Below are positions 15,001 to 30,000 of a stretch of DNA of 64,000 nucleotides, piece by piece. The position numbers were made by a program. Within the stretch, counting starts at the first letter, position 1; each line of letters begins with the position of its first letter. This DNA comes from Saccostrea cucullata (taxonomy: Eukaryota): positions 62,001 through 126,000 of the forward strand of contig NW_026918070.1 of assembly GCF_032062105.1 (NCBI RefSeq), read 5' to 3'.

Positions 15001-18000
15001 ATCTATATCTTGAACCCGTGCATATAGTAGCGTGTTGAAAGAAAACTCACATCATGTAATTCTTCTGTTAGTTTACCACCCGATCTGGTGGATCATGTTG
15101 TGTATGAAATCAAGTTGTATATAAAGGACTCATCTTTTTTCATTCTGGGTAAAGTCACATCTCGATTTGACAAACTGAGTCCAGTTGTCACAAAACCAGT
15201 GAATATAGTCCCCAGTGAAATGTTCCCAGCCTCATTGATCATTAGGTCAAATCAAGTCATTCAACACTTTTTTTTTACATGAATTCAATGCCTATATATA
15301 AGATTAGATCATTTTTTCAATAATGATTGAATATGCATATACTTAACGTAAGATGTTTTTAATATCTCAGCAAACACCACTGGACTCCCCTGTCCACACG
15401 TCTGTCCGTGTTATGAGAAAAAGGCTCCCGAGGACTGCTTCTCTTTTGATGAGTTTGGGAATCCGTTGCCATGCCCAATGATAGATTTCAATGTAACTCT
15501 ATCCAGAGCCAGAAACGAGACTTCAGAGGCGGAAGGTAGGAATCTTGGAATATCATTCATAAAATCATATCATTTTCAGTAAATATTTAATATTTATGTA
15601 AAAGTTGAGCAGGGAATAAAAACAGAATCACGTAAGAAATCTGGGCTTTAAAAGAAAAATTAAAGTATCCATGTGTTTTAAGAAAAATCATTGTATTGAC
15701 ATACGTCAGTCTGAGATGTTATTCTCCTTTTAAAATAAATGTTACCTAGAATTTTAGATAATTAATCACATTTCTTTCGAAGATAACTATTGCAATAAAT
15801 TCGATTTAGATAGTCGGGTAAGGAGATTTTTGCAGAAGCTTACAGTTCGACACAGGGGAATTCCTTAAAAGCTCTTTTTCAAATATTAAAATAGTTTTGA
15901 ATTTTTTATAGACGTAAATTTAAATTGTTTTTTTTAATTCTTGTGCAGGATCTAAATACTAGTATGTTCACTTTTAAGTGAAAATATTCTAGATATAATC
16001 CGTTGTGAAATTATTCGTTTTCAATCAGATATCTGATAAATACGTTAAAGAAATTTTGGTTTCCTTCACAAAATACTTCTTATTTCTTAATTTCAAAGTG
16101 TTTGTCTAACTTACAATTATTTATTTTCGCCGAATAAGAGATAAATAATAAATATAAAATTCTTTTACTGGTTTTAACTTTGTTCATAGACTAGTAGATT
16201 GATCATTTTACATTTTTTTGTTGTACTTATATTACTGCGAATACTTATTGTAGTCTTTGAGGCAAATTCTGTCATGGGTACATGTTCCCGCCATGCTAAG
16301 TATCTTGATACTTGGGCCAGACTTACAGATGACACAAAACAAAAGATTAAAAATTTCCTCTCCAACCCTGCCGACCCAAGTATCACCTACCAAGACATCG
16401 AGAAAATGCCCATCGAAGCTTTTTCTGCTGCTAACGTAAATATGGATTTAATACACACATAAATAGCGTTTTAATCATGGAATAGAATAATCGTGTTACT
16501 TAAAGTTAACTGACATTTACAGAAGACTTTGTGGCGAGAGGTCATGTCCAAGGCATCAGACAGACAAAAACTGGCTATTCAGATGAAGGTCATGACGAGT
16601 AAGGACTGTGAAGTTCAAAGCATGCTCAAAGGACTCAACTTTACCAAACTCTATCTGGTACTTGTTGAAACATTCTCAAATGGTGCATTAATGCTATTGG
16701 GTAAAAATTCATGTGAATGGTTTTAATTTACTTCATTTCTCATGTTTATTTGATAACAGGCCAGTGAAGCAAAGAAAGAGGTAGATGCTACCATTTTTGG
16801 AGAAGATCTCTGCCGTGCACTTCTGCATAACTGTTCATATCTACCACCAGAGCTCTTTACGTTCATTAACACCACAGCTCCAATTTGCTTCTTATATTTC
16901 GGTGAAGATTGCTTAGGCTCAAAAGACGGAATGAAATTCTTTGGTAGGTAATAAAATTTTATTACCGCGAGGAGGAATTTCTAAAACGAAGTAAATTATT
17001 GACAAACAAGTTGATGTAACAAGAATATCAGGAGTTTCGCTTAAAGTTACCATTTTGTAAGTTCTATGGTCGATGCAATGACCTTGTCAACAAGTACAAT
17101 TTATCATTGAGTCAAATGCTGACTGGCATATTTCATACTAATTGTTAGTCCATTATTTATACACTGAATTGGCGAGGGATTTTTTCATTATTTTCCGATC
17201 ATGAAATACAGCTCACTTCTCCATGGCACCTTATCCACCTCAAATGATTTAGAGGTCCGTTTTGCTCTGCTCCTATTTGAGCATACTTTATTTGAACAGT
17301 AACGTCAAGGGACGTAGGCAACTTGTGACTAAATCCATCATTCAATTAAATGGCCTGCTACACGCAAAATTAAATTAATCACAATAATTCATAAAAATAA
17401 CATTTAAGATAATGGATAGCTCATGTGCTTCTAAATTTCTCTATTTACTACTTGTGTAAAACACAGAACCAGGAATAAATATACATAGTTTTAGAAACTT
17501 TTTAGAAACATCTTTCTTATTGAATGGATTGTAAATGTGTGTTTCAATATTAATATTTTTATCATCTAGGTAATTTTACCGGATTGCCATGTCCAAAGGA
17601 GTGTCCATGCTACAAGGATAAGGGTATAGGAGACGGCTTCTCCTTTGATCAAAATGGACTTCCCCTACCGTGTCCAAATATAGACATGAATGTTACTCTA
17701 TCAAGGGCCAGGAACGAAACGTCAGAAGCAGGAGGTAAATCTTAAGAATAACCAAATGGCCTAGGAACAATGGGTCATGATATCTGAAAAAATGGTTGAG
17801 GAATAATGTAAAAATTACTCATCTTAAAATCTGTTGATATAGCGTAATCAATTGTTCATTTTTGAAAGATTTGTAATTAATATATGATAAAATATATTCA
17901 ACTATAAAAATAGGTACAAATTTCATTTTTCCTAATCATACTCTGCTGCTTTATTAAAAGCATATTTCAGATGTACTTGTAGTGGACTTTATTTTTAGTC

Positions 18001-27000: not shown

Positions 27001-30000
27001 ACTTCGCCTTTGTGTTTTAAAACAATCAGTATTTTTTCTTTTATATTTAAAGTATTTACCGCATCAGCTGAAATTGGAACATGTTCTAGACTTGCTAAAT
27101 ACTTAAGAAAATGGATCAGTCTTACCGCTGCTACCCAGGACAAAGCCTTACAATATTTGAGGGATCCAAAGTCAGTGTCTGATGATGACGTCAAGAGACT
27201 TCCTATTGAGATATTTGCCATTGCCAATGTATGTTTGTTGTTTTGCTACATTTTACTTAACAGTGAACAAGCATGCTAGGCTTTCTATAATATTTATCAC
27301 AGAAATTTTCTTTGGCTGTTTCTCAGTAATTTGTGTATATATCATATGATTCATACACACAGTTTCACACTCAGAAATACTTTTTTCTAGAAAACTTTAC
27401 TTGATAATATAACACGACAAGCCTCTACTGATCAGAAGTTGTACCTGGCTACTTCCGCCTCCCTCACCAGAAGCTGTCAAGTCCAGGATCACCTCAGCTC
27501 ATTCAGCTTAGAACAAACATTTAAGGTAAAAATTGACTAGTGTTATATACCCATTACATCATGACAAAAAGAAAGAGCTATTCTAATCACCAAAATGAAT
27601 GTTATGAGTAAATATATATTTTATTTTTCAGGATGCAAAGCAATCTGGAGCCGTGGATTCTACTTACTTCAATGCTTCTTTATGTAAAGCTTTTATGGAT
27701 GGACAGTGTGATATGCCAATGAGCAAGTGGCAGTTTGCTGTAGATCATGCCCAGGAATGTCTTCTTGATAAAGCTGTCTGTCTCAAAGACGTCAATGACG
27801 CTACACTGGAGAATCTATTATCGTAAGATGTCCCTCTATCTTTCTGCTATATTTTCCAACTTTTACAAAATTATCCTTTGTTTAAGATTCATGCCTGATT
27901 TTTATACAAAAACGGGAAAAAATTAGAGTGTATTTGTGTGTTGAGAAAGAGACAGACAGACGAAAATAGGGAGCGAGATAGAGTGAGGAGTGAGAAAAAC
28001 AGGATCATGTCTTCTTTTTTTTCTTCGCTTACTGTATTTTGCTTTCGACTTTCTTTTAAAGAAAAGGGAAAGATTTCTTAATCAAATTTCTTCAGAAGAA
28101 GACATGCGTTATTCATTTATTGAGTCGTTTTTACTAACTCAGAAGTAAAATTTCTTCTAAAATACTGTTTATTAACACTTGCAGAGTTGAGTCCATGAAA
28201 GGGTTGTGCAACAAGACGAATATTGATGATAGATCGAAAGAGCTGTTCCAAAGCCGCTTAAATTCGTATCTCGGCAACAAGACCACGTTCACTTGTGATC
28301 AGGATTTCCTTCTTTTGATGAATCTGTGTAACTTGAAACCAAAATACGTGACAAAGTTTTGCACCAGTGCCAAAGTAAGATATATTTTGATTTTTATTTT
28401 AAAATTAAACTATGAAAAAGCATGAAAATTTGTTCTCAAACTATGGAAAAACATCAAAACCAATTGCAATGTTTATTTGCATAGTTGAGATAAAAAAAGA
28501 TTTTAAGAAAAATGAATGTCATAAAATGGATTAAAAATTAGTGCGTTTATTTGGCTTTGAATCTATCTATAAAACCAATGTCCGTAGAAAATTACAAATT
28601 TAATGCACTTCTCAGGAAGGCTACATATCGAATGCTACTCTAATTCTAGGGGCAAAGGTGAATATATTCCGTTTTGTGTGTATTAATGATTCTTTGTTTA
28701 AATCAATTCTTTTTTCAGGTTGCGCAATATACACCCTCAACAGAACAATCTCGAGAATGGGAAATCATAAAAACAGAGTACTTAAACAAACAACAAGTTG
28801 ACTTCTCAGCAATGGACAAAGCCACTCTTTCCTCGTAAATGTCTTATTTTTCTACTTTTTGCCTAATCTTTTGAAAACGGTTTCGAAAATTTTATAATCA
28901 GGCAAATAAGTGTCATGGTTGAAATGACACTTTAGTTCAAGTAAGAGGTAAAGACATGAATAAGATTAAAAATTTCCATGTTGAAGACGTACATATCATC
29001 ACATATTTCCATGAATTGAATGTTATATTGCATGTTTCATACGACGAGCTTAATAATTTTCATATGTTTAAAATAATCATATGTAAGCTTATCTCCCCGT
29101 GACGCAGCTGATAGGCACAAAATTATTCCTGTAAGCAAATTTACTCCTAATCATTGACATATGCAATTCGATTATTCATATGCAGCATTTAAGATTAATC
29201 TTCAGTATTTCTTGCTTTTCATCAAACTTTGTTTTCCCTTCATTCTCAAATTTTTAAAAACTATTCATCATTCAGTTTAGAAATTTTTAGAAATTGATCT
29301 GGAACGGTGCTTGATTTGTGGTTTTCTGTTTATTAAGTTCAATAAAGTCTCTCTCCTACAAGGAGATATTTTAAAAGCAAACTTAGAAATAAACTGTTTT
29401 AGATAACATATGCTTACAGAATGCGTGGTTAATTTACTTTTGCACACATACGCAAATCTGCTAATGAGTAAAATACGATATTCTTACATATCTTTTGAAG
29501 GTATTTACCGATTTCAAAGTCCACGATGAAATCCCTGGATGCTGCAGTTCTAACAAAAGTCAAAGACGCAGTTTGTACAGATAATGTTTTGGATAATGCC
29601 AAATTCACCGATGGACAGGTGAGCCTATCAACAAAACATAAAATTGCGAGATAACAAATAGGTAACCTTGTGAGGAGTAAGGTATTGCTTTGAATTTGTT
29701 TTATAATCAGATATCTCATTATTGTATGTTTGAATCGACGTCTAATTTACAAAATACGTTTAAAGATTTTCACTTATCTCTCCTTTATGTTTGATCATTT
29801 ATTGCATTCAATTGAATAGAAAAACCTAGAAGTACATGTTTTGAAAAGAATAGTCACTGATATACATTGCTACAAAATTGTATAGATACGAGAGGTGATG
29901 GATGTGCTTCGAATCAAAGGAAAGCTGGACAAGACTACTGACAAAGATTGTCTGCTGAAGTATGTCCCAGCCGAGATTGTCGACTCCTTGTCCGATTCTG

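What the first reader, a model, noticed from the sequence alone, without database searches (positions are those of the whole stretch)
15371..27822. Exon phases allow combinatorial in-frame splicing of the modules
Seen: in M1-M5 the phases are A 1-1, B 1-0, C 0-0, D 0-1. Any whole module can therefore be skipped, any A can join any later B (likewise B-C, C-D, D-A), and A or C can be dropped alone, all in frame. Established: oyster sperm bindin diversifies by alternative splicing and recombination of tandem lectin repeats. Inference: this locus could produce isoforms with variable module number and chimeric modules, a possible diversification system.
Basis: partly seen in the sequence, partly recalled or inferred. 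Interest (0 to 1): 0.72.

Follow-up and report, generated by a model that had tools for sequence, protein, structure and literature searches.

The report
Oyster otoancorin-like gene's repeated exon modules
A tandem array of four-exon modules in an oyster cell-surface gene can lose or swap modules without breaking the reading frame, which follows from how the array arose by duplication; public gene models already include forms one module shorter, but whether splicing or copy-number alleles make them is still open.

Summary
The exon map and phases are real. A is 1-1, B 1-0, C 0-0 and D 0-1, with AG/GT borders, and every exon peptide matches Saccostrea cucullata RefSeq models exactly.

Exon C of module 2 has lost its acceptor and first 40 nt to a 51-nt deletion, and RefSeq splits the gene there. 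Module 6 ends in phase 2.

Frame compatibility between modules is automatic for tandem copies of an in-frame unit, so it is not evidence of design.

The gene encodes a secreted otoancorin/mesothelin-like protein. Its single ancestral N-terminal module was amplified in oysters.

RefSeq already holds the predicted forms. S. cucullata X2 joins D2 to A4 and X3 joins A3 to B4, each 222 aa (666 nt) shorter than X1. In five oyster species, 14 of 14 short models lack exactly one module-equivalent, and none drops A or C alone.

Assemblies of one species differ by one module, so copy-number alleles explain the models at least as well as splicing.

Modules evolve under purifying selection (dN/dS 0.09-0.43), so variation is in length, not in binding-site sequence.

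Verdict: partly supported, moderate interest.

The parts
9070..9102 (+). Start of the first coding exon (Met and start of the signal peptide) of the gene. The end coordinate covers only the 11 codons searched for; the exon's 3' border was not mapped.
   Evidence: the first 11 residues of RefSeq protein P0002 are found in frame starting at nt 9070.
14784..14849 (+). Signal-peptide exon preceding module 1; 66 nt, ends in phase 1
   Evidence: ag|...|gt borders; frame 2 gives the P0002 residues.
15371..15535 (+). Exon A1 (165 nt, phase 1-1)
   Evidence: peptide found exactly in P0002.
16254..16435 (+). Exon B1 (182 nt, 1-0)
16523..16657 (+). Exon C1 (135 nt, 0-0)
16760..16943 (+). Exon D1 (184 nt, 0-1)
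17570..17734 (+). Exon A2 (165 nt, 1-1)
18968..19149 (+). Exon B2 (182 nt, 1-0). RefSeq LOC134242475 reads through its donor into the intron and ends there.
19507..19581 (+). Remnant of exon C2: 75 nt behind a cryptic acceptor. The canonical acceptor and the first 40 exon nt are deleted. RefSeq LOC134242870 starts at the ATG here.
   Evidence: 51-nt deletion versus M3, GACA microhomology, in-frame TGA just upstream.
19672..19855 (+). Exon D2 (184 nt, 0-1)
20382..20546 (+). Exon A3 (165 nt, 1-1); joined directly to B4 in RefSeq isoform X3
21051..21232 (+). Exon B3 (182 nt, 1-0)
21842..21976 (+). Exon C3 (135 nt, 0-0)
22079..22262 (+). Exon D3 (184 nt, 0-1)
22486..22650 (+). Exon A4 (165 nt, 1-1); joined directly to D2 in RefSeq isoform X2
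24026..24207 (+). Exon B4 (182 nt, 1-0)
24290..24424 (+). Exon C4 (135 nt, 0-0)
24527..24701 (+). Exon D4 (175 nt, 0-1)
24870..25031 (+). Exon A5 (162 nt, 1-1)
25577..25758 (+). Exon B5 (182 nt, 1-0)
25846..25980 (+). Exon C5 (135 nt, 0-0)
26080..26482 (+). Exon D5 (403 nt, 0-1), extended by a Ser/Thr/Pro-rich linker
26774..26944 (+). Exon A6 of the divergent, ancestral-type module (171 nt, 1-1)
27053..27228 (+). Exon B6 (176 nt, 1-0); 45% identical to B1
27391..27525 (+). Exon C6 (135 nt, 0-0)
27632..27822 (+). Exon D6 (191 nt, phase 0-2)
28185..28374 (+). First exon after the array (190 nt, 2-0)
28716..38656 (+). Remaining exons of the otoancorin/mesothelin-like C-terminal part, up to the last coding exon
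   Evidence: tblastn of P0004 against the window; only hits of 97% identity or more were kept.
16925..16990 (+). Predicted RNA hairpin over the D1 donor site
   Evidence: -18.9 kcal/mol, z -4.84, 0 of 200 shuffles fold as well.
19837..19902 (+). Predicted RNA hairpin over the D2 donor site
   Evidence: (I12), 49: -21.5 kcal/mol, z -5.58, 0 of 200 shuffles.
22244..22309 (+). Predicted RNA hairpin over the D3 donor site (same sequence as at D2)
   Evidence: (I13), 49: -21.5 kcal/mol, z -5.02, 0 of 200 shuffles.

Best explanation
The region is the N-terminal repeat array of one Saccostrea cucullata gene, running from about 9.07 kb to 38.66 kb on the + strand.

The encoded protein has, in order:
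- a signal peptide;
- five tandem modules of about 220 aa;
- a mucin-like Ser/Thr/Pro linker;
- a sixth, ancestral-type module;
- about 930 aa of otoancorin/stereocilin/mesothelin-like sequence, with a dibasic RRRKR site and a hydrophobic C-terminal tail. I read this as a furin-cleaved, GPI-anchored surface or matrix-attachment protein; that reading is inference.

Each module is encoded by four exons, A to D. The array arose in oysters by tandem duplication of the single module that other bivalves carry. Because every copy inherits the same phases, any same-order junction between modules is in frame. This is a by-product of descent.

The array keeps changing through unequal crossing-over and gene conversion between modules whose exons and introns are 90-99% alike. 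The results are different module numbers between genomes, mosaic modules, and damaged copies such as exon C of M2.

I think the one-module-shorter RefSeq 'isoforms' most likely reflect such copy-number or recombinant alleles in the RNA donors, spliced collinearly and aligned to a longer reference. Some true module skipping is possible on top of this.

The variation changes the length and valency of a conserved helical repeat stalk, not its binding-site sequence.

Shown: anatomy, phases, identity with the RefSeq models, family relation of the C-terminal part, copy-number differences between assemblies, purifying selection.
Inferred: protein function, GPI anchoring and furin cleavage, and above all the origin of the short models.
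For: Anatomy
- Five module copies spaced 1.5-3.0 kb start to start.
- Exon map and phases.
- All exon peptides are found exactly in P0002 and P0004.
- The gene extends to 38656.

Family
- The C-terminal 494 aa hit 16 proteins, including an otoancorin-like protein of a ray that carries PF21058 and PF06060 (E 3.8e-21). A C. gigas orthologue is named Otoancorin by UniProt.
- PF06060 scores exactly at its cut-off, 25.8 bits.

Oyster-specific amplification
- Exon profiles find 4-5 copies of each exon type in oyster orthologues, except exon D in O. edulis (2 copies). They find at most one A or B copy in Pecten, Argopecten, Mytilus, Pinctada and Ylistrum, and in two oyster paralogues.
- A B-exon profile finds only 9 proteins among 1.84 billion.

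Recombination substrate and traces
- Repeat families that include introns are 95-98% identical (D3, D8).
- Nearest neighbours differ by exon type: A2 is closest to A4 (2 differences), C1 to C3 (1 difference), D2 to D3 (9 differences).
- The 51-nt microhomology-flanked deletion in C2.

Copy-number differences
- C. virginica: 4+1 modules in the older models versus a single 3+1 model in the newer annotation. That model aligns without gaps to the older short isoforms, with 22-24 mismatches in 2073 aa.
- C. gigas 3+1 versus 4+1, C. angulata 5+1, S. echinata 4+1.
- The C. gigas linker is 210 versus 256 aa.

Short models
- 14 of 14 lack exactly one module-equivalent. 13 are exact contiguous deletions at exon-unit borders, and 1 also uses a donor 9 nt upstream. 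None drops a single symmetric exon.

Selection
- dN/dS is 0.09-0.43 for 10 module pairs and 0.11-0.35 by exon type.
Against: - No reads or cDNA were available, so the origin of the short models is not shown.
- The diagnostic differences lie close to the junctions. A3 versus A4 last differ 44 nt before the donor. B3 versus B4 first differ at nt 13. D2 versus D3 last differ 22 nt before the donor. A3 versus A4 first differ at nt 5. Ordinary 100-150-nt reads could therefore support D2|A4 and A3|B4 uniquely, which argues that those junctions exist in RNA.
- The older C. gigas annotation has five different one-module-short models. Under the allele reading this needs several different recombinant alleles among the RNA donors.
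- Stable hairpins over the D-exon donors of M1-M3 would fit a regulated choice of splice site.
- Copy-number differences between assemblies could partly be assembly collapse rather than true alleles.
- The family assignment rests on a borderline Pfam score plus one distant named homologue. The fold search of the module found nothing significant.
Confidence: 0.55

Rival explanations
1. Within one genotype the spliceosome joins a donor to the equivalent acceptor of a later module. One allele then yields a ladder of proteins with different module numbers and chimeric modules, and this serves as a diversification system.
For: - RefSeq X2 (D2|A4) and X3 (A3|B4) at this locus differ from X1 by 222 aa.
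- The same pattern occurs in five oyster species, at all four registers: 14 short models.
- The junctions are distinguishable with reads of 28 nt or more (D2|A4) and 58 nt or more (A3|B4).
- Hairpins mask the D donors of M1-M3 with z -4.8 to -5.6, against +1.8 to -2.1 for 15 control donors.
- Oyster bindin is a precedent for splicing that sets repeat number (passages of the review PMC5712786).
Against: - None of the 20 models drops the symmetric exons A or C alone or skips two modules. Always exactly one repeat unit is lost, which is the signature expected from copy-number alleles or template switching.
- Assemblies of one species differ by one module.
- dN/dS of 0.09-0.43 and 90-99% identity among M2-M4 mean little sequence diversity would result.
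- No inverted repeat of 30 nt or more links introns.
- RefSeq models are predictions.
- No independent transcript fragment crossing D2|A4 is in the protein collection (1 hit among 24 candidates, the RefSeq protein P0002).
Confidence: 0.3
2. The short models are technical artefacts. Either reverse transcriptase switched templates between near-identical modules, or short reads were placed ambiguously and the aligner slid the junction to the nearest canonical exon border. Only the collinear mRNA exists.
For: - Exon ends are identical over 22-44 nt between neighbouring modules.
- Loss of exactly one repeat period in 14 of 14 short models is typical of template switching in tandem repeats (established knowledge, recalled).
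- 2 of the 14 models are ambiguous in register at the protein level.
Against: - 11 of the 14 short models have one unambiguous register fixed by variant residues on both sides; another, C. gigas X4, was placed at D|A by alignment.
- The pattern recurs in independent annotations of five species.
- Genomes with one module fewer really exist as assemblies, so shorter mRNAs are expected anyway.
Confidence: 0.15
3. The 51-nt lesion in exon C of M2 really splits the locus, as RefSeq annotates it. On this reading there is a short secreted protein (signal peptide, M1, A2, B2) and a separate signal-less downstream gene, or this haplotype of the gene is on its way to becoming a pseudogene.
For: - RefSeq gives two loci. 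LOC134242475 (398 aa) ends by read-through of the B2 donor. LOC134242870 starts at an ATG inside the C2 remnant.
- The canonical acceptor is gone and an in-frame TGA sits at the scar.
Against: - The orthologues in S. echinata, O. edulis, C. virginica, C. angulata and C. gigas are single models with a signal peptide in front of the whole array.
- LOC134242870 as annotated would lack a signal peptide, although its relatives are secreted.
- B2 can join D2, C3 or the 75-nt remnant in frame.
- The downstream modules are intact and under purifying selection.
Confidence: 0.12

Closest known systems
Oyster sperm bindin (tandem F-lectin repeats). I saw it as described in the review PMC5712786, passages read; I did not read the original papers by Moy et al. 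2008.
   Same: An oyster gene with tandem, highly similar coding repeats. Repeat number varies among mRNA models. The introns are similar enough to recombine. Repeat junctions are in frame.
   Different: - The module here is an all-alpha, Cys-containing unit with no lectin family match.
- It is encoded by four exons.
- Pairwise dN/dS is 0.09-0.43, not positive selection.
- Expression in sperm is unknown.
- Splicing within one male has been shown for bindin but not here.
Otoancorin / stereocilin / mesothelin family (Pfam PF06060, PF21058). The prediction of an ARM-type superhelix comes from PMC2628672, of which I saw only the title and the start of the abstract.
   Same: - The C-terminal 494 aa are similar to an otoancorin-like protein (E 3.8e-21).
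- PF06060 scores at its cut-off.
- Signal peptide, RRRKR site and hydrophobic C-terminus are as in the mesothelin precursor (seen by eye; the resemblance is recalled).
   Different: - The amplified N-terminal module array and the mucin-like linker are specific to oysters.
- The ray otoancorin-like protein matched none of the four exon profiles at E 0.01 or below.
- The fold search of the module gave mesothelin only at E 1.0.
Copy-number-variable multi-exon coding repeats, such as the kringle IV-2 units of human LPA (recalled, not checked here)
   Same: A tandem multi-exon unit whose length is a multiple of three, with very similar introns. Genomes of one species differ in unit number, which gives proteins of different length.
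   Different: Here the unit has four exons and the copies differ enough to be told apart. Polymorphism within S. cucullata itself was not testable.
Dscam1-type clusters of mutually exclusive exons (recalled)
   Same: Arrays of duplicated exons with equal phases.
   Different: - The collinear model uses all copies in series, so the exons are not mutually exclusive.
- No intronic inverted repeat of 30 nt or more.

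Membership tests
Otoancorin/stereocilin/mesothelin family | Match to the family's Pfam model at or above its gathering score | tested here: inconclusive
   PF06060 scores 25.8 bits, equal to the 25.8-bit cut-off, over 43 residues (1709-1751) of P0004. The C. gigas orthologue P0007 has no match at E 0.01 or below. The database's precomputed annotation lists PF06060 for P0001.
Otoancorin/stereocilin/mesothelin family | Significant sequence similarity to a named member | tested here: met
   residues 1480-1973 of P0004 versus otoancorin-like isoform X2 of Narcine bancroftii (P0041, which carries PF21058 and PF06060): E 3.8e-21, 23% identity, 94% coverage. 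Bivalve relatives carry PF21058.
Otoancorin/stereocilin/mesothelin family | All-alpha superhelical repeat fold | tested here: inconclusive
   Only the N-terminal modules were folded. AlphaFold2 on P0002 gave an all-alpha module core, mean pLDDT 67.5, pTM 0.49. Foldseek against the PDB gave 0 matches at E 0.001 or below; full-length mesothelin 8cx3_A came at rank 4 with E 1.0.
Otoancorin/stereocilin/mesothelin family | Furin-type cleavage site and GPI-anchor signal | not tested
   RRRKR and a hydrophobic C-terminal tail are visible in P0004. No predictor was run.
Bindin-type repeat diversification system | Repeats are F-type lectin domains | tested here: not met
   Pfam found no family at or above its cut-off in 9 single-exon peptides, and no lectin family in P0002, P0004 or P0007.
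Bindin-type repeat diversification system | mRNAs with different repeat numbers from one gene | tested here: inconclusive
   RefSeq models X1, X2 and X3 differ by 222 aa. They are predictions, and I saw no reads.
Bindin-type repeat diversification system | Positive selection on the repeats | tested here: not met
   Pairwise Nei-Gojobori dN/dS among M1-M5 is 0.09-0.43. Site-wise tests were not done.
Bindin-type repeat diversification system | Recombination between repeats | tested here: inconclusive
   Nearest-neighbour relations are mosaic (A2-A4, C1-C3, D2-D3), and introns are 95-98% identical. No formal recombination test was run.
Copy-number-variable multi-exon coding repeat | Tandem in-frame unit with similar introns | tested here: met
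Copy-number-variable multi-exon coding repeat | Different unit numbers in genomes of one species | tested here: met
   Seen in relatives, at the level of gene models. C. virginica has 4+1 versus 3+1 modules, with a gapless alignment and 22-24 mismatches. C. gigas has 3+1 versus 4+1. This could not be tested for S. cucullata itself, and assembly collapse is not excluded.
Dscam1-type mutually exclusive exon cluster | One exon of each cluster used per mRNA, guided by docking and selector pairing | tested here: not met
   The collinear model uses all modules in series. There are 0 inverted repeats of 30 nt or more. The 37 shorter pairs were not compared with chance.

The most novel reading that the evidence does not exclude
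In single oysters the spliceosome chooses among the equivalent acceptors of neighbouring modules. Hairpins that mask the last-exon (D) donor of modules 1-3 assist this choice. One allele then gives a ladder of otoancorin-like surface proteins with different module numbers. This 'module-counting' mode of splicing is conserved across Ostreidae, as suggested by the 14 one-module-short models in five species. It also rescues the damaged exon C of module 2.
Probability: 0.2. Interest if true: 0.65.

Novelty: new member of a known kind. Interest (0 to 1): 0.38.

Why it matters
The case shows that 'phase-compatible modules' in a tandem array need no special explanation.

It also corrects the public annotation. 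The two S. cucullata RefSeq loci, LOC134242475 and LOC134242870, are most likely one gene, interrupted by a 51-nt lesion in one exon.

It defines an oyster-specific amplification of the N-terminal module of an otoancorin/mesothelin-like protein. My searches found no paper on this gene under its locus or protein identifiers, and the one paper holding both 'otoancorin' and 'oyster' is about starfish.

If the one-module-short forms come from splicing within one animal, the locus would be a second oyster example, after bindin, of repeat number being set at the RNA level. It would also be a compact model for how splice sites are chosen among near-identical repeats.

If the short forms come from alleles, the locus is a clean marker of unequal crossing-over in a highly polymorphic genome. 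It would also warn that 'isoforms' in repeat genes may be alleles.

Tried and rejected
- Pfam on 9 single-exon peptides: nothing at or above a cut-off; best E 0.1.
- ESM Atlas look-up of module 1 (residues 36-257 of P0002): no usable hit.
- PDB sequence search with P0004: best E 0.25, against acetyl-CoA carboxylase, taken as chance.
- Foldseek against the PDB with the module model: 0 matches at E 0.001 or below.
- Search for short, independent protein fragments crossing the D2|A4 junction: 24 candidates, 1 hit, which was the RefSeq protein P0002.
- Unnamed assembled fragments in the C. gigas and C. virginica clusters cover only the part of the protein after the amplified modules (from the divergent module onward). 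They say nothing about module junctions.
- Literature: 0 papers for LOC105348454. 1 unrelated paper for otoancorin plus oyster.
- Long intronic inverted repeats as looping elements: none of 30 nt or more.
- P0026 and P0027 from the profile search are repetitive, unrelated-looking proteins, taken as chance.
- Genome contigs was not used because it holds only bacteria and archaea. The closed collections were not needed. As a result, no other oyster genome or read set could be examined.

Full report
WHAT THE WINDOW IS
The window has no N and 28-39% G+C. Exon peptides from the region match RefSeq proteins of the hooded oyster Saccostrea cucullata letter for letter. It is therefore oyster DNA, not human.

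I searched the window's exons one by one. I did not build or search a joined model of my own. What a joined search could add came from the public RefSeq models that the exon search returned, used by their ids.

CHECK OF THE OBSERVATION
Direct repeats show five module copies spaced 1.5-3.0 kb start to start. From the open frames and the sequence I placed every exon border.

Exon lengths, A/B/C/D:
- M1 and M3: 165/182/135/184 nt
- M4: 165/182/135/175
- M5: 162/182/135/403
- M6, which is divergent: 171/176/135/191

All 23 canonical exons have ag|...|gt borders, and all their peptides occur exactly in the RefSeq proteins P0002 and P0004. The phases A 1-1, B 1-0, C 0-0 and D 0-1 are therefore confirmed for M1, M3, M4 and M5, and for A2, B2 and D2.

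Three corrections:
- Exon C of M2 is damaged. Compared with M3, a 51-nt deletion flanked by a 4-nt microhomology removes the acceptor and the first 40 exon bases and leaves an in-frame TGA. Only a 75-nt remnant behind a cryptic acceptor (19507-19581) is left.
- The 666-nt module size holds only for M1 and M3.
- D6 ends in phase 2.

IS IT MORE THAN CHANCE?
No. Tandem copies of one in-frame unit share their phases by descent. That any A can join any later B, and so on, is therefore guaranteed, and every split codon starts with G, so no stop can arise. Two symmetric exons out of four is unremarkable, with probability about 0.4 under a one-third chance each (my arithmetic).

WHAT THE GENE IS
No Pfam family matches a single exon. 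A profile of the six B exons finds only 9 proteins among 1.84 billion representatives. Apart from RefSeq protein P0001 these are six oyster-type single-exon fragments and two repetitive chance hits.

The gene runs from a first coding exon at about 9070 to 38656. Its C-terminal 494 aa find 16 relatives. These include:
- orthologues in S. echinata, Ostrea edulis, Crassostrea virginica and C. gigas, one of which UniProt names Otoancorin;
- single-copy relatives in Pinctada, Mytilus, Pecten, Argopecten and Ylistrum;
- an otoancorin-like protein of a ray carrying the stereocilin and mesothelin Pfam families (E 3.8e-21).

Pfam's mesothelin model scores exactly at its cut-off. The protein has a signal peptide, a mucin-like linker inside D5, an RRRKR site and a hydrophobic C-terminal tail (by eye). 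This layout is that of a cleaved, GPI-anchored attachment protein, but that is inference.

Exon profiles show 4-5 copies of each exon type in oyster orthologues, apart from exon D in O. edulis (2). Other bivalves and two oyster paralogues have at most one A or B copy. The array is therefore an oyster-specific amplification of an ancestral module, and M6 is its local representative.

An AlphaFold2 model of P0002 gives an all-alpha module core at moderate confidence (mean pLDDT 67.5). It has no significant structural neighbour; mesothelin appears only at E 1.0. The PDB sequence search and the ESM Atlas gave nothing.

THE PREDICTED ISOFORMS ALREADY EXIST AS PUBLIC MODELS
RefSeq splits this locus at the damaged exon. 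LOC134242475 (398 aa) is the signal peptide, M1, A2 and B2, followed by read-through of the B2 donor. LOC134242870 starts at an ATG in the C2 remnant.

The three isoforms of LOC134242870:
- X1 (1973 aa) is collinear.
- X2 (1751 aa) joins D2 to A4.
- X3 (1751 aa) joins A3 to B4.

I split the orthologues' models at exon-type anchors and asked which single contiguous deletion turns each X1 into each shorter model.
- 13 of 14 short models are exact deletions of one module-equivalent at exon-unit borders. The unit is four exons, or three in O. edulis, whose first three modules lack D.
- The fourteenth, C. gigas X4, is the same with a donor 9 nt upstream.
- Registers: N|A or D|A, 2 models; A|B, 3; B|C, 3; C|D, 3; ambiguous at the protein level, 2; plus the D|A variant.
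- No model drops A or C alone, and none skips two modules.

SPLICING OR ALLELES?
The same one-unit loss is expected if RNA from an allele with one module fewer is aligned to a longer reference, because the aligner places the gap at an intron. Such genomes exist.
- The newer C. virginica annotation has a single 3+1-module model of 2073 aa. It aligns without gaps to the older short isoforms X2 and X3 (22-24 mismatches), while the older X1 has 4+1 modules.
- C. gigas assemblies give 3+1 and 4+1 modules, and linkers of 210 and 256 aa. C. angulata has 5+1 and S. echinata 4+1.

In the window itself the substrate and traces of recombination are visible.
- Intron-containing repeat families are 95-98% identical.
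- Nearest neighbours differ by exon type: A2-A4 with 2 differences, C1-C3 with 1, D2-D3 with 9.
- Exon C2 carries its deletion.

Against a purely technical origin, the diagnostic differences lie near the junctions: 22 nt plus 5 nt for D2|A4, and 44 nt plus 13 nt for A3|B4. Ordinary reads can therefore prove those junctions.

I could not reach reads or other oyster genomes. A search for independent short protein fragments across D2|A4 found only the RefSeq protein P0002. The unnamed assembled fragments cover only the part of the protein after the amplified modules.

My estimate:
- alleles spliced collinearly, about one half;
- true module skipping within a genotype, about 0.3;
- artefact, about 0.15.

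These readings can coexist.

IS IT A DIVERSIFICATION SYSTEM?
I did not read the original papers. The analogy is weak at the protein level.
- The modules are not lectins.
- M2-M4 are 94-99% identical per exon.
- dN/dS among modules is 0.09-0.43.

Module exchange would therefore change the length and valency of a conserved helical stalk, not a recognition surface.

A FEATURE NOT IN THE FINDING
The donor site of exon D, the module's last exon, lies in a stable predicted hairpin.
- M1: -18.9 kcal/mol, z -4.84.
- M2 and M3: -21.5 kcal/mol, z -5.58 and -5.02; the two share one sequence.
- M4: weaker, z -2.59.
- M5: none, z 0.03.
- Fifteen control donors of exons A, B and C give z from +1.82 to -2.13.

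A masked donor at the module boundary could bias splice-site choice. With two independent sequences and no other species to compare, this is only a lead. No long intronic inverted repeats exist.

WHERE THE PHASE LOGIC DOES MATTER
If the locus is one gene, as its orthologues indicate, the lesion in C2 is tolerated only for two possible reasons. Exon C is symmetric, so B2 can join D2 or the 75-nt remnant. Alternatively, B2 can join C3. This is a concrete, testable prediction.

LITERATURE
No paper in the searched library names this locus or its orthologues by identifier. The one paper holding both otoancorin and oyster is about starfish. Supplementary files were not consulted.

VERDICT
The compatibility is ordinary. 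The predicted products are already in RefSeq, but their origin is unresolved. The 'diversification' reading is not supported by the sequence. This is a new member of a known kind, of moderate interest.

Noticed in passing
window 16925-16990, 19837-19902, 22244-22309 (weaker at 24683-24748; none at 26464-26529): The 5' splice site of exon D sits in a stable predicted RNA hairpin in M1-M3 (z -4.8 to -5.6, 0 of 200 shuffles fold as well). It is weaker in M4 (z -2.6) and absent in M5. Fifteen control donors give z from +1.8 to -2.1.
   Followed up: partly
window 19380-19605: A 51-nt deletion removes the acceptor and the first 40 nt of exon C in module 2. RefSeq splits the gene into LOC134242475 and LOC134242870 exactly here, whereas the orthologues are single genes.
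   Followed up: yes
protein P0043 (Ostrea edulis LOC125681718 X1), not in the window: The first three modules of the O. edulis orthologue have no D unit. Their C unit ends differently and leads straight into the next A, giving a module of 162 aa.
   Followed up: partly
window 37407-38498: A tandem repeat of 71 nt x 15.4 copies (85% matches) lies between the last two coding exons of the gene.
   Followed up: no
window 19398-19458, 21385-21445, 21742-21803: A 15-nt minisatellite occurs in the B-to-C introns of M2 and M3 (family D7).
   Followed up: no
window 60096-60169 and 60332-60404, minus strand: Two tRNA matches in Rfam, 38.4 and 32.6 bits, lie 163 nt apart. They could be genes or SINE heads; this was not examined.
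   Followed up: no
window 13391-13711, minus strand: A 106-aa open frame just upstream of the signal-peptide exon looks to me, from memory, like the C-terminal part of a retroelement reverse transcriptase. It was not searched.
   Followed up: no
proteins P0011-P0019, P0062 (unnamed assemblies), not in the window: Contigs of 3.8-4.5 kb carry uninterrupted 1193-1212-aa frames of the C. gigas orthologue, so they are probably spliced transcripts. The 10 frames listed are cut short on the N-terminal side; the two read (P0011, P0013) begin in the linker, probably because the repeated modules break the assembly.
   Followed up: partly
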